Shown here in pieces: positions 17,512 to 52,440 of a stretch of DNA of 64,000 nucleotides. Under the pieces are notes generated by a model. That model was not told where the DNA came from. It saw only the letters and a list, made by a program, of their open reading frames with translations, and did not search any database. Position numbers and translations under genes: made by a program. The first letter of the stretch is position 1. Each line of letters begins with the position of its first letter. Location: the NCBI GenBank assembly GCA_964016885.1, contig OZ024756.1:26164001-26228000 (forward strand). The letters run 5' to 3'. The DNA is from Eledone cirrhosa. Lineage: Eukaryota.

Positions 17512-17710
17512 ATAGGAAAAAGTATGACCCCGACGGCAGAGCTCGAGCCGTTTCGACGGCAATTTCTGGAGTCCAGAAATAGCCGTCGAAACGGCTTGAG
17601 CTCTGCCGTCGGGGTCATACTTTTTCCTATTTCCCACTCTACTACCCTAAGTATTGAATACTTAGGGTGCGTTATGGTCCATCTGGTTCCTTACCACAAT
17701 TCCATCGTTA
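17512..17710 (+). mobile_element. Fold-back half-hammerhead element, family H1 (copy 1)
   Basis: 59-bp arms centred on 17571. The right arm has GAAA-CGGC..GCCG-TC (17588-17610), then a ~80-nt tail. Flanked by (TA)n. Confidence 0.75.
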
Positions 17711-19140
17711 TATATATATATATATATATATATATATATATATATATATATATATATATATATATATATATATATATATATATATATATATATATAGAGA
17801 GAGAGAGAGAGAGAGAGAGAGAGAGAGAGACACAAACACAAACATGAACACACACACATATAATCATACACACATTTATACACCATCACGTGTAATATAT
17901 GTTGAAAAACTGCAATTAACCTTGCAATTAGTGTGTGTGTGTAAAATGTTAAAAAAATTACAATCAAGGGAGATAAATCGCATAACATTAGTTAATCAAA
18001 ATATTTTGGAATATAGATATATTGTATTTATTATTAGTGGAGCCTTAGCTTTAATACCAACCGAGGGAAGGAACAGACACATACGAAGAAAGAACTAGGT
18101 ACGAGCAATCGAACTCTCTAGCCACTAAGTCATATGTTTTCGCTATATATATATATATATATATATATATATATATATATGTACACATACATACATATAT
18201 ATGTGTATGTATTATGCATGCGTATGTATATAAGTATATGTTATATATGTATATATATATGTATATATATACGTATATATATAGATATACACACATATGT
18301 ATACACATACATACATATGTGTATGTATTATGCATGCGTATGTATGTAAGTATATGTTATGTATATATATATATATATACATATAAATACATATGTACAC
18401 ATACATACATGCATATATATGTGTATGTATTATGCATGCGTATGTATGTAAGTATATGTTATATATGTATATATATATGTATATATATAGATATACACAC
18501 ATATGTACACATACATACATGCATATATATGTGTATGTATTATGCATGCGTATGTATGTAAGTATATGTTATGTATATATATATATATATATATATATAC
18601 ATATAAATACATATGTACACATACATACATGCATATATATGTGTATGTATTATGCATGCGTATGTATGTAAGTATATGTTATATATGTATATATATATGT
18701 ATATATATAGATATACACACATATGTACACATACATGCATATATATGTGTATGTATTATGCATGCGTATGTGTATGTAGGCGTATGCATGTACGTAAGTA
18801 TATGTATATATATACATACATACATACATACTCATACATACCTACACATGCATGCACATACACATACATCGATATCGATCCCTGGACTATGGTAGGGAGG
18901 TAGGCTCAAATTACTGAAAAACAAAACCCGAAAACGCACCCAAAAAACAACGATGAGGTCGGTGTAAATTTACATGTCTACCTCGGGATTGGGCGTGGGG
19001 TGGGGTATAACGGGGTGGATAAATTGGCCAATCCTCGTTAAACATGTTCACCTGACATTCTGTTTGTTCACATTGTGATGCGATGCGTGAACGGCAGTGT
19101 GTTAATAGAAGAATAAAAAATGGAGAATACCCAAAGGTTT

Positions 19141-19345
19141 GTAGCTGTAGCTTAGTGGTTAGAGTGTTGGGTTCACAATGGGGAGGTTGTGAGTTCGATT
19201 CCAGGCTCAGGCGGTGCTTTGATTCCTTGAGCATGACACTATATTTCACGTTGCTTCAGTTGGCTCAGCTGGAAAAAAATGAGTTGTGACGTCACTGGTG
19301 CCAAGCTGCATCGGACTTTGCCTTTCTCCTTGACAACACCGTATA
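19141..19345 (+). mobile_element. tRNA-derived CORE-like SINE (family B); other copies at 24548-24670(-), 32835-32975(+), 54170-54428(-), 55215-55380(+)
   Basis: A box tagcttagtggttag, B box gagttcgattc, then tccttgagca.gacact...tttcacgttgct. Confidence 0.75.
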
Positions 19346-19384
19346 GCGTATATATAATGTATATATATATATATATATATATAT

Positions 19385-19582
19385 ATAGGAACGAGTGGGA
19401 CCCCGACGGCTGAGCTCAAGCCGTTTCGACGGCTAATTCTGGAGTCCAGAATTAGCCGTCGAAACGGCTTGAGCTCAGCCGTCGGGGTCCCACTCGTTCC
19501 TATTACCCACTCTACTACCCTAAGTATTGAGTACTTTGGTGCGTTATGGTCCATCTCGTTCCTTACCACATTTCCTTCGTTA
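19385..19582 (+). mobile_element. Fold-back half-hammerhead element, family H1 (copy 2)
   Basis: Perfect 59-bp arms centred on 19444. GAAA at 19461-19464, GTC at 19481-19483. Same tail as copy 1, flanked by (TA)n. Confidence 0.75.
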
Positions 19583-21760
19583 TATATATATATATATAGT
19601 GTATATATACATATATACATTATATAGTGTACTTAGTTTATATTTAGTGTATATATCGACTACATGGTGTTTATATAAGTCGCAACGTCACCGATGGTGC
19701 CAAGCTAGCACAACATCGTATAGCGTATATATAATGTATTTATATATTTATCAATATGTAGTATATACAGGGGCCTCGTTTGCCTTAAAAATGTGAGGGT
19801 GAGAAACCAACATTTGTTGATTCTTAAAGGAGCATAAATTGCTTATGGTGCCTTTCCCGGACCCTATCACATAAGTAAAATTTTACGCTAATTAAATTTT
19901 ATATATTCAAATGAAGTTCAGATATAAAAAAAATAAGATTAAAAAGAATTTATTATATCAAATAAACAAAAAATAAAATATAGAAGTTTGAAAAAGTGGG
20001 GACTTGTCCTTTGGTACCCCCCTGAAACAAGGCCCTTAAGTGTATATATATATATATATATAGATTATATAGTGTACTTAGTCTATGTATGGAATGGCTC
20101 TTCCAGCGCATCTTCCTTACCATTCTCCGGGGGAAACGCCTTCTCCATTCTGCCCGCCGGGGCTGTGGGGCGGCCAACACGTGGGACCCCATTTGCTCAC
20201 TATACAGAAAGATGGAGGCGATGACGGTGGGAGTTCAGCTCTTCTGTGTTCAAGAGTGTATTTTCATACTTGTGAGAGGAACATTGTGAATTCCTATTTA
20301 TAGTTTTACATGTTTACCATAAATGATTCGCCACTAAGCGTTCTTACAATTACAAACAAGCTATAAAACCCTTACACTGTCATGCTGAGTAAGAACACAA
20401 CACATGCCATACATGGTGTATATATGAATCGCGACGTCACTGGTTCCAAGCTGTATCGGCCTTTGTCTTTTCTTTATACAACATCATATACAATGTAGAT
20501 ATAACGTACATAGGGTATATATAGTGGTTTCTTATATAGGCAGAAGGCCAGTAACTTTGGGGGAGGGAGAAGTCGATTAAATTGACCCCAGTGCGTGACT
20601 GGTACTTTATTTTATCGATCCCGTAAGATAAATTACGACTGAAAAGTTGGGGTAAAAAAAATCAGAAAGATTTCACTTAGGAGACTTAGGCGAGCCATTC
20701 AGAAAGCTTTGCAGGCTGCAGGTTGTCCATAACTGTAATAAACCACGTCCAATACAAGCAAATCAACCACAAACTATTTCATGTTAAACCAACAAAACCT
20801 GAAACTCATTACCGAAAAATGAATCTAAACCAAATCTAAACATCTCACAGACAGACGATAACGTAATAAAAACCAATCTACTATAGTAGTACTAAGGACA
20901 AACTCGTCCTCAATATCCAGTTTTCGTCAAAGGTTATGGCTACTAAATAAATTATAACCGTATATTCTGCTGAGCATTTAATCATAAAACTACCATATCA
21001 TCATAAACAAACCACTATCATATTCGAAGGCTGTCGTCCATGTATCCCACAAAGAAAACAAAGTTAAAATAAATTAACCGAAACCTAAAATAACTCTCTC
21101 CATAGATCCACTAAAGAAAACATAATTTACAAGATGGCTGACCTATCTGCTTTTCTAAGTTTTCTTTCTTTTCTTACTTTCATCTATCTTCTTATTTACT
21201 CTATCTCCCAAGCAATCTCTCCGTGCCCTGACTTCAACCCTTTTGATACCCAAAATATTCCAACTTAATTTTATATAAGAACTATCTTAGTAATGAAATA
21301 ATCAATAATTTTAATAAATCCTTAATAAACCCATTTTGATATCAACCTGCCAGAAACCAGCCCTGGTACTACGAAACAAAACAAAACATTTTAAAGCGTT
21401 CCTATTTGAATTAAAATCTTCCGACATAATTTTGCATAAGACCCACATGTTAAGTTACTAGCTTAGTAACGAATAGAAAATTCATTGTCGAAAGCGACGG
21501 AGGTCCATTCAATCTTACGCAAGATATATCTTGTGTTATTTGGACTGTTTACCCAGACGCTATAGTTGTTTATGTTCTTCAGACATTCTTCACCATATTT
21601 TGTTTCCTTCTATTCAGAAATATCTTCAGCTTTAATTCCAGTCAGCATGACTTTACCGATCACATCGATAGTTCGGTCTATTTACTGTAATCCCGCTGTT
21701 GCTAATATTTTGGTCACACAGGATTAACAAGTCTATGTTATGCATAAAGATTTGTATAAT

Positions 21761-50839: not shown

Positions 50840-51245
50840 TTTTTATAAGCTGTGATCAAGTCATAGCTATCTCAGAACAGGGGTCCATTCATCCTTCATA
50901 TCTCTTTCTTTCTTGCTCTCTAAGTCACAATTGTGCCCCTACGGCTCGAGGAGAAGTATGGCTTTACTACTTAATTAATTTATATGCAGAATTTTGCTTA
51001 TGATCCTTGAGGGTTATGTAGGGCTCGCTTTTGGCCATACATTTTTTTATAAGCTGTGATCAAGTCATAGCTATCTCAGAACAGGGGTCCATTCATCCTT
51101 CATATCTCTTTCTTTCTTGCTCTCTAAGTCACAATTGTGCCCCTACGGCTCGAGGAGAAGTATGGCTTTACTACTTAATTAATTTATATGCAGAATTTTG
51201 CTTATGATCCTTGAGGGTTATGTAGGGCTCACTTTTGGCCATACA
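50840..51245. repeat. 204-bp tandem duplication (2 near-identical copies) followed by short cttttggccatacatctat repeats
   Basis: aagctgtgatcaagtc at 50847 and 51051. Confidence 0.93.
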
Positions 51246-51877
51246 TCTATCTTTTGGCCATACATCTATCACTTTTGGCCTATCATCTATCTTAAGCTAA
51301 GATGCTAATGTAAGGCCTTTATATTGATTTGCTATAGGAGAGCCAACGCCAGTGCTAAACAAACTACTTAATGAGGGTTAAATGATGATAATTTGTGTGT
51401 GTGTATATATATATATATATATATATATATATATATATATATATATATATATATGTCCAATTAAAAAAGGGAGTTAAAGACTCACATTTATTCCCTATAA
51501 TTTAATGAGTTCAAGGATAAGATTCTGGGCTCTTTATAAATCAGCATATAGAGAGAAGTACACATATGTGTTCAATCATAGGGGATCAAACGCCACCAGA
51601 GTGACGAACATATTAAATACGGATGATTGAACACATATCTCTATGTGCATTTCTCTCTATATGCTTATATATATATATATATATATATATATATATATAT
51701 ATATATATATATATATATATATATATATATATATATATATATTTATATATATATATATTGTTATACTTGGGGAGGGTCATATTTGTGTAATAATATTGCC
51801 AGACTTAATAACAGAACACACTCACTGTTTGGTTGGTTTTCGCTTCTGTGTCTTTTATATCGGTTAATTTAATTTAT

Positions 51878-51992
51878 TCGGTCCTCAATGTTACCATTGA
51901 CTGACCAACGGTCAAAAATACAGATACAATAATGTCTATATTGTATCTGTATTTTTGACCGTTGGTCAGTCAATGGTAACATTGAGGACCGA
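51878..51992. repeat. Perfect DNA hairpin (54-bp arms, 7-nt loop)
   Basis: tcggtcctcaatgttaccattgactgaccaacggtcaaaaatacagatacaata and its reverse complement. Confidence 0.92.
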
Positions 51993-52163
51993 TGAGCTCA
52001 AGCCGTTTCGACGGCTAATTCTGGACGCAGAATTAGCCGTCGAAACGGCTTGAGCTCAGCCGTCGGGGTCCTACTCGTTCCTATTACCCACTCTACTACC
52101 CTAAGTATTGAGTACTTTGGTGCGTTATGGTCCACCTGGTTCCTTACCACATTTCCTTCGTTA
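51993..52163 (+). mobile_element. Fold-back half-hammerhead element, family H1 (copy 4, short left arm)
   Basis: Hairpin 51993-52058, then the H1 tail. Confidence 0.75.
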
Positions 52164-52231
52164 TACACACACACACACACACACACACACACACACACAC
52201 ACACACACACACACACATATATATATATATA

Positions 52232-52440
52232 TATAGGAAAAAGTATGACCCCGACGGCAGAGCTCAAGGCGTTTCGACGGCTATTTCTGTGTTGAATCAT
52301 AGAGTCCAGAAATAGCAGTCGAAACGGCTTGAGCTCTGCCGTCGGGCTCATACTTTTTCCTATTTCCCACTCTACTACCCTAAGTATTGAGTACTCTGGT
52401 GCGTTATGGTCCAGCTGGTTGCTGACCACAATTCCTTTGA
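52232..52440 (+). mobile_element. Fold-back half-hammerhead element, family H1 (copy 5, longer loop)
   Basis: Hairpin 52232-52363 with loop tgttgaatcatagagtc, then the H1 tail. Flanked by (TA)n. Confidence 0.75.

What the first reader, a model, noticed from the sequence alone, without database searches (positions are those of the whole stretch)
17512..52440. Fold-back half-ribozyme elements: DNA hairpins centred on hammerhead stem II
Seen: in three unrelated sequence families the right arm of a long inverted repeat contains, just after the central helix, the 3' half of a hammerhead. H1 has GAAA-CGGC..GCCG-TC (17512, 19385, 47862, 51993, 52232), H2 has GAAA-CAATTG-TT (28952) and H3 has GAAA-CGTACG-TA (46704). 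Where stem I and CUGANGA should be, there is instead an inverted copy of that 3' half. In H1 each copy's arms match each other rather than other copies (ggaaaaagtatgacccc/ggggtcatactttttcc vs ggaacgagtgggacccc/ggggtcccactcgttcc), and arm and loop lengths vary. Inference: the inversion arises anew at each insertion when nascent cDNA snaps back on the stem II hairpin and self-primes second-strand synthesis. The ribozyme fold would then double as a priming device, giving a mechanism for the inverted pseudo-LTRs known in Penelope-like elements.
Basis: partly seen in the sequence, partly recalled or inferred. Interest (0 to 1): 0.82.

Follow-up and report, generated by a model that had tools for sequence, protein, structure and literature searches.

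The report
Twin-primed Penelope stubs at transcription start
These hairpins are short, mirror-image stubs of a very abundant Penelope-type jumping gene sitting in TA repeats; their two halves were likely copied separately from the two cut DNA strands and likely meet at the start of the element's RNA, which happens to lie inside its ribozyme motif, rather than being folded back on the ribozyme stem.

Summary
The hairpins are real, but the stem II snap-back mechanism is not supported. H1 is the end of a Hydra-clade Penelope-like element (PLE): 3.5 kb unit, RT plus GIY-YIG ORF, 11,745 short palindromes in (TA)n. Its parent has a full type I hammerhead motif with a U3-A8 core. Arms match by locus (68 of 100 against 12% expected) and junctions vary, so each inversion is made anew. 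However, the exact stem II snap-back product has 0 matches, and H2, H3 and H4 keep CUGANGA in at least one arm. Loop orientation is 16:14, the tailed arm is the shorter one in 70 of 100 lopsided junctions, and 253 copies have no duplicated core. This favours priming from both target strands. Arms stop at an Inr-like site about 30 nt behind a TATA-like box inside loop II, often with an extra G, so the centre is likely the RNA 5' end (no RNA data). The inverted, tailed layout is published, and this scan already proposed twin priming on other pieces of this genome. The nested-promoter reading was not found in print or in scan notes.

The parts
17512..17710 (+). H1 copy a (ATTT subfamily): inverted tail-less arm +61..+3, then sense arm +1..+140 with tail, in (TA)n
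19385..19582 (+). H1 copy b (AATT subfamily): 59-bp perfect arms, 1-nt centre, tail, in (TA)n
47863..48052 (-). H1 copy c (diverged subfamily): tail on the left; the arms differ in the hypervariable segment
51987..52163 (+). H1 copy d: short inverted piece +41..+2, then sense arm +5..+140; joined on its left to another family's palindrome
51878..51992 (.). 54-bp-arm palindrome of another repeat family whose arm starts at the (TA)n to its left; heterologous joint with H1 copy d
52233..52440 (+). H1 copy e: arms end at +5 and +1, 13-nt non-parental spacer ending in G, tail
28952..29154 (+). H2 copy: 66-bp arms; right arm carries an intact core (CTGAGGA at 29022, GAAA at 29040, palindromic CAATTG); tail to 29154
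46704..47285 (+). H3 copy: left arm (minus strand) with the whole hammerhead motif including CTGATGA; about 200 bp of another repeat in the middle; truncated right arm with tail
47357..47762 (+).

Best explanation
The hairpins are short head-to-head insertions of a Hydra-clade Penelope-like retrotransposon in (TA)n, likely made when both nicked target strands prime reverse transcription, one at +61 and one at +140 of the element, and the two cDNAs likely run off the RNA's 5' end and are joined there. Shown: the parent element, the two fixed outer ends, the variable junctions, arm matching by locus, the arm asymmetries, and a sharp inner boundary at -4..+7. Inferred: that +61 and +140 are RT start sites (by analogy with the two start sites shown in vitro for PAc). 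Also inferred: that the boundary is a Pol II start (TATA-like box at -31/-29, Inr-like TT[T/C]AGTCC at +1, extra G at -1), and that joining uses microhomology. Because this start lies inside loop II of the hammerhead, stubs made at the transcript's 5' end carry only the ribozyme's 3' half. The half-ribozyme look would then be a by-product of promoter position.
For: Parent: 3,542-bp tandem unit with a 784-codon open frame bearing RWR, DKT, CxCX5C, GIY-YIG without CCHH, CxxC and CxH. Ends: 16 of 18 long two-armed copies have one +61 and one +140 end, one has two +61 ends and one two +140 ends. The tail-less arm is the longer in 10 of the 16, the tailed arm in 5, equal in 1. Lopsided short junctions: the tailed arm is the truncated one in 70 of the first 100 of 246 (hand count; p = 8e-5 against 50:50). 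Hairpin-centred junctions: loop from the tailed arm 16, from the tail-less arm 14, of 30 examined among 387. 253 copies have an inverted +61..+1 piece and a direct tail with no duplicated core; 10 of 10 fetched were checked. H5-H1 joints between two families, each arm ending at its own 5' boundary: 2 exact matches plus L068. Boundary: 89 of 127 arms end at -4..+7. A TATA-like 8-mer starts at -31, -30 or -29 in 72 of 72 parental copies. G at -1 in 36 of 100 arms of 50 loci (hand count), against 0 of 100 and 0 of 85 long copies. Literature: PAc nicks and extends both strands, has two RT start sites that define the tail, and is predicted to be a dimer (PMC11167929). Penelope's promoter lies in the pLTR (PMC2377424).
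Against: No RNA data were available, so the start site is inferred from DNA only. One-sided deletion after insertion can mimic each asymmetry. Truncation points of the tailed arm fall off steadily (598, 459, 253, 189 in successive windows; the last uses a different anchor) with no pile-up at +61, so a collision of two RTs on one RNA is not seen. True fold-backs do occur at cDNA ends (L124, L252, L260; L061, L164). Heterologous joints are rare (1 of 100 unbiased arms). 8 of the 15 loci with G next to both arms share one spacer that may be a templated insertion. T at -1 is commoner than G (53 of 100). The TATA-like box is also the 5' strand of stem II, so its conservation has a second possible cause. 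The hammerhead shows no compensatory pair changes, weak folding z-scores (-0.3 and -1.8), and RNAalifold did not recover it.
Confidence: 0.62

Rival explanations
1. One cDNA primed at the tail end runs to the RNA 5' end, folds back on a few self-complementary or untemplated bases, and copies itself to +61. The asymmetries arise later by one-sided deletion at the palindrome centre.
For: Arms share haplotypes (68 of 100) and tend to share the -1 base (15 loci with two G, 6 with one, 29 with none). Fold-backs at cDNA ends exist. Truncation frequency falls with distance from the centre. Self-priming was proposed in PMC3846280.
Against: It predicts that the tailed arm is the longer or equal one; the bias runs the other way (70:30; 10:5). 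Loop orientation is 16:14. +61 serves as both outer ends in L258 and as the only H1 end in heterologous joints. Some loci have arms of different subfamilies (L002, L203, L088).
Confidence: 0.14
2. Twin priming holds, but the inner boundary is set by RT stalling in, or nuclease cleavage of, the long extended stem II rather than by a transcription start.
For: The -4..+7 cluster overlaps the 3' strand of a predicted distal helix in loop II. The spread is about 11 nt.
Against: TATA-like and Inr-like motifs sit at canonical spacing in both subfamilies. There is a non-parental G at -1. H3, H4 and H5 have sharp boundaries outside any stem II. At least 5,147 long copies read through the same region (1,540 + 3,607).
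Confidence: 0.17
3. One reading: nascent cDNA snaps back on the hammerhead's own stem II and self-primes the second strand.
For: H1 centres do lie within the span of the parental stem-loop II, and arms pair by locus.
Against: 0 exact matches to the predicted product (one register, exact pattern) against 11,745 short palindromes. The parental loop and 5' stem strand are absent from the stubs. H2, H3, H4 and the canonical family invert upstream of an intact core.
Confidence: 0.03
4. A fixed-hairpin element (MITE-like) copied whole, or an assembly artefact.
For: The 30 best hits to copy b are nearly identical over 193 bp, but they were selected by similarity to the query.
Against: Junctions differ among unselected loci. 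The same ends continue into an RT-EN ORF. Both outer ends followed by (AT)n appear in raw reads of three other samples. Arms carry private, one-sided mutations (82 against 4 shared).
Confidence: 0.02

Closest known systems
Hydra clade of C-terminal EN+ Penelope-like elements (Craig et al. 2021, PMC8557442)
   Same: Single RT + GIY-YIG ORF; RWK-type (here RWR), DKT, CxCX5C, no CCHH, CxxC and CxH motifs; (TA)n targets; hammerhead in the pLTR; inverted 5'-truncated copy with a one-sided tail.
   Different: Unit of 3.5 kb (paper: generally under 3 kb). U3-A8 hammerhead with a long loop II and a stable stem III. Tail about 80 nt (30-40 typical). Most copies are stubs that start inside the hammerhead.
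Inverted pLTRs with junction palindromes in Adineta vaga Pen2/Pen3 (Arkhipova et al. 2013, PMC3846280)
   Same: Head-to-head arrangement, optional tail, palindromes at the inverted junction, TATA and Inr-like motifs in the pLTR.
   Different: That paper reads the palindromes as self-priming. The junction statistics here fit two separately primed cDNAs better.
Poseidon element PAc of Anolis carolinensis in vitro (Frangieh et al. 2024, PMC11167929)
   Same: Two fixed start points bounding the tail, AT-rich target, uncleaved RNA as template (both H1 ends lie downstream of the predicted cut at +41).
   Different: Different clade. In the parts read, the paper does not link the two start sites to the two arms of inverted insertions or to a 5' run-off.
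L1 twin priming (as described in PMC11702581)
   Same: A second RT primes from the reciprocal DNA end inside the RNA, and the junction is joined with microhomology. The 253 copies without a duplicated core have this geometry.
   Different: Here the second start is fixed (+61), and most insertions copy the same region twice, giving palindromes. L1 inversions overlap by only 1-10 bp.
PLE hammerheads, including U3-A8 cores (Cervera and de la Pena 2014, PMC4209133)
   Same: Type I motif in the pLTR, U3-A8 covariation, unpaired base at the 5' end of stem II, palindromic stem III in H2, H3 and H4, motif pairs on opposite strands.
   Different: H1 has a 4-bp stem III with a 9-nt loop and a predicted promoter inside stem-loop II.

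Membership tests
EN+ Penelope-like element | Single ORF with PLE-type RT and a GIY-YIG endonuclease | tested here: met
   784-codon open frame in the tandem unit with RT motifs and a C-terminal YIG domain, read by eye; Pfam gave no hit
EN+ Penelope-like element | Tandem or partial-tandem pLTR structure, inverted copy, one-sided tail | tested here: met
   3,542-bp tandem array; 16 of 18 long pairs with one +61 and one +140 end
Hydra clade | RWK, DKT, CxCX5C linker, no CCHH, CxxC and CxH around E and N | tested here: met
   RWR (R for K), DKT, CNCPDRSIC, a single C between the GIY and YIG positions, CNLC and CKH in the ORF, compared with section 11 of PMC8557442
Hydra clade | Insertion into (TA)n | tested here: met
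   flanks
Hydra clade | Phylogenetic placement with described Hydra RTs | not tested
   no reference proteins fetched, no tree built
Type I hammerhead ribozyme (H1 parent) | Core boxes plus three stems | tested here: met
   TTGA[A/C/G/T]AA in 57 of 72 parental copies; the three-way junction is the MFE fold for L095 and L191; 92% of cells paired
Type I hammerhead ribozyme (H1 parent) | Covariation supporting the stems | tested here: inconclusive
   0 compensatory pairs among 49 close copies; the RNAalifold consensus gave a competing hairpin
Type I hammerhead ribozyme (H1 parent) | Self-cleavage | not testable with these tools
   needs an in vitro assay
MITE / fixed-TIR element | Fixed terminal inverted repeats and a fixed interior copied whole | tested here: not met
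   junctions vary among loci; the tail lies outside the inverted repeat; arms extend into a PLE ORF
Non-LTR retrozyme | Head-to-tail tandem units, each with an intact hammerhead and no ORF | tested here: not met
   H1 stubs are head-to-head and lack the 5' core; the tandem unit encodes RT-EN

The most novel reading that the evidence does not exclude
A PLE RT dimer binds one capped RNA and copies it twice from two fixed start sites onto the two strands of a (TA)n break. In this Hydra family the Pol II core promoter is built into the hammerhead itself (TATA box = 5' strand of stem II, initiator = loop II), so the transcript's 5' pLTR carries a disarmed half-ribozyme while its 3' pLTR carries a whole one. 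Run-off copies from the 5' pLTR give more than 10,000 palindromes that map the start site at base resolution.
Probability: 0.3. Interest if true: 0.7.

Novelty: new variant of a known kind. Interest (0 to 1): 0.5.

Why it matters
How Penelope-like elements, the closest relatives of telomerase RTs, make their inverted repeats and one-sided tails is named as an open problem in PMC8557442. This family offers over 10,000 natural junctions with a known inner boundary. Their statistics separate two-strand priming from the published self-priming idea and point to a direct in vitro test. If the boundary is the transcription start, palindrome centres become a DNA-only way to map PLE promoters, and a promoter nested in a hammerhead would explain why a 5' pLTR is not cut by its own ribozyme. 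The layout itself is already described, which caps the surprise.

Tried and rejected
Rfam scan of the window: the 150 rows shown of 401 were all below-threshold miRNA matches to microsatellites and hairpins; no hammerhead row was seen. CUGANGA search for H1 parents: 34 matches; in the 30 loci read the motif came from junctions or foreign arms, not from parents. The true parent has a U3-A8 core. Pfam on the ORF: no family. Sequencing runs: no RNA holder listed, which is no evidence either way. The depth step near +1 in RAD reads was rejected as evidence because read ends pile up at AATT sites there, probably a restriction cut. Raw reads spanning a whole hairpin were not obtained, so single loci are not confirmed in reads. 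An RT collision peak at +61 was sought and not found. RNAalifold and pair counting gave no covariation support. Local alignment over-extended some arm ends through chance microhomology, so genome-wide pattern counts were used for the asymmetry. My first label, Neptune, was dropped after reading the Hydra diagnostics. Gene conversion between arms as a general cause of arm matching was rejected: rare variants are one-sided 82 to 4. Literature searches for twin priming in PLEs, octopus PLE palindromes, or a structure-based PLE mechanism returned no paper whose title or abstract start states this model.
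Full report
Setting. The window is G000:C17:26164001-26228000 of a 3.0 Gb animal genome rich in (TA)n. Coordinates such as +61 are relative to the A of the motif AGTCCAG in the H1 element.

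Observation. All five H1 copies are present and carry the 3' half of a hammerhead in one arm and an inverted copy where the 5' core would be. The genome has 53,660 exact 23-mer H1 arms and 11,745 palindromes with junctions up to 30 nt; reversed control patterns gave 0. Of the first 100 arms on contig 1, 77 are in short inverted insertions, 16 are long copies and 7 were classed as other; of those 7, 2 are long copies on inspection and 1 is a joint with another family. H2 and H3 do not fit the description. H2's right arm has CTGAGGA at 29022. H3's left arm has CTGATGA 97 nt before GAAA, and another repeat sits between the arms. In 30 H2 loci most copies are long with an intact core, and the short palindromes centre at or upstream of CTGA. 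In 30 H3 loci the furthest 5' ends stop a few bases before CTGATGA and none extends beyond. H4 in the same window has intact motifs in both arms. The 18 Rfam Hammerhead_1 hits show the same layout, with inversions at varied places upstream of an intact core.

Parent. Copies with more upstream sequence number 1,540 and 3,607 for the two subfamilies. A tandem array on contig 1 has a 3,542-bp unit with one 784-codon open frame that starts just after the tail. Its motifs (RWR, DKT, CxCX5C, no CCHH, CxxC, CxH) match the Hydra clade as defined in PMC8557442 section 11; no tree was built and Pfam gave no hit. Upstream of the H1 core the parent has stem I, a TTGA-N-AA core and a long stem II. N is A, C, G or T, and the core is intact in 57 of 72 copies. 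This is the U3-A8 variant reported for PLEs in PMC4209133. Single-sequence folding gives the three-way junction (z -1.8 and -0.3). Pairing is 92% with no compensatory change, and the alignment fold chose a competing local hairpin. Activity is untested.

Are the inversions made anew? Yes. Junctions differ among the 50 loci listed. In 100 two-armed loci (near-identical hits and six mis-paired rows dropped) the hypervariable segment is the same in both arms in 68, against 12% expected between loci. Rare variants are one-sided 82 times and shared 4 times, as expected for mutation after insertion. A few loci have arms from different subfamilies (L002, L203, L088).

Is it snap-back on stem II? No. 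Such a product would keep the parental loop and the 5' stem strand; the exact pattern has 0 matches (one register, no mismatches). Of 127 arms in the unbiased loci, 89 end at -4..+7, 7 at -7..-5, 13 at +8..+16 and 18 further upstream, only 1 of them within the 5' strand of stem II.

One cDNA folding back, or two cDNAs? A tail-primed cDNA that folds back must supply the loop and must be the longer arm. At the one natural hairpin in the short RNA there are 387 junctions; in the 30 examined the loop comes from the tailed arm in 16 and from the tail-less arm in 14 (two rows reassigned by eye). Among 246 strongly lopsided junctions, the tailed arm is the truncated one in 70 of the first 100 (hand count from the last base, which can misclassify a few; p = 8e-5). 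In 18 long opposite-strand pairs picked from the list, 16 have one +61 and one +140 end, one has two +61 ends and one two +140 ends. The tail-less arm is longer in 10 of the 16, sometimes by over 2 kb. 253 copies have an inverted +61..+1 piece followed directly by the tail, with no duplicated core (10 of 10 fetched confirmed). Joints between two families exist but are rare (window 51878-52163). Results against this reading: truncation of the tailed arm falls off steadily (598, 459, 253, 189) with no peak at +61, so two RTs colliding on one RNA is not seen. Later one-sided deletion remains a possible source of asymmetry, though it does not explain the direction of the bias. True fold-backs occur at some cDNA ends far from the hammerhead (L124, L252, L260).

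What sets the centre? The boundary sits at TT[T/C]AGTCC, an initiator-like motif (consensus recalled), and a TATA-like 8-mer starts at -31, -30 or -29 in 72 of 72 parental copies. That 8-mer is also the 5' strand of stem II, and the copies were picked by a motif that overlaps it, so its presence is less telling than its spacing. Long copies have T or C at -1 (100 of 100; 85 of 85). Stubs with both arms reaching +1 have T 53, G 36, A 6 and C 5 of 100 arms (hand count). An extra G opposite a 5' cap is a known RT signature (recalled; a cut passage in PMC11702581 mentions an extra G). Eight of the 15 double-G loci may instead be templated insertions. Penelope's promoter lies in its pLTR (PMC2377424), and TATA and Inr-like motifs are noted in a rotifer pLTR (PMC3846280). 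No RNA run was listed, so this step is inference. Raw RAD reads of three samples show both outer ends followed by (AT)n.

Mechanism proposed. The endonuclease nicks both strands of (TA)n (inferred; shown for PAc). Each 3' end primes RT, one at +61 and one at +140 (inferred from fixed ends). On RNA that starts at +1, both cDNAs run off after 60 and 140 nt and are joined, often through short microhomology, giving the stub. On read-through RNA with the start sites at its 3' pLTR, the cDNAs run into the 3' UTR and ORF and give long unequal arms. Matching haplotypes mean one RNA molecule or two from one source locus; I could not tell which.

Comparison and novelty. The inverted, tailed layout and junction palindromes are published (PMC8557442, PMC3846280), and the latter explains them by self-priming. 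My searches listed no paper stating twin priming for PLEs or a promoter inside a PLE hammerhead; the library lacks most subscription papers. What I read: PMC8557442 passages and section 11; PMC11167929 and PMC4209133 parts 1-2 of 4; PMC3846280, PMC2377424 and PMC11702581 passages; bioRxiv 10.64898/2026.07.22.740005 part 1 of 5; no supplements. Supplementary files S1 and S2 of PMC8557442 may bear on family identity and on half-core motifs. Earlier notes of this scan reached twin priming on other pieces of this genome; I had stated that reading before the look-up and tested it here. They gave me the Hydra lead and the 2013 paper. No note held the promoter-in-hammerhead words.

Verdict. Real feature and known element class. 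Twin priming with run-off at a likely transcription start is the best reading (0.62). Interest 0.5.

Noticed in passing
window 37414-38162: 372-bp perfect palindrome of another repeat family, with a tail on the left and (TA)n on both sides; same two-armed layout
   Followed up: partly
window 17155-17234 and about 17250-17512: A 38-bp-arm palindrome at the end of another repeat, and a longer inverted repeat centred on a (TA)n run, directly left of H1 copy a
   Followed up: no
window about 24305-24350 (+) and about 62200-62245 (-): Two further hammerhead-like motifs with a TATATA stem III and intact CTGATGA / CTGAAGA cores
   Followed up: no
window 19140-19320 and 46880-47060: Short interspersed repeats; the first looks tRNA-derived by eye (untested), the second interrupts the H3 insertion
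   Followed up: no
L246 and L265 (G000:C1:91.47-91.49 Mb): Array of at least five 3,542-bp units; the unit examined has an uninterrupted RT-EN frame
   Followed up: partly
L298-L327 (H3 family): Hammerhead motif with about 90 nt between the core boxes; in 30 loci no copy extends upstream of a fixed 5' end, so the family may be non-autonomous
   Followed up: partly
L049, L062, L068: Arms of family H5 and H1 joined at their respective 5' boundaries within one (TA)n site
   Followed up: partly
L125, L126, L130, L143; L127: Non-LTR retrotransposon ORFs near long H1 copies; Helitron-like Rep/helicase ORFs in L127 (by eye)
   Followed up: no
H1 +12..+27: Each arm contains a 6-bp hairpin with a 4-nt loop that competes with the hammerhead fold and forms a minor class of 387 junctions
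   Followed up: yes
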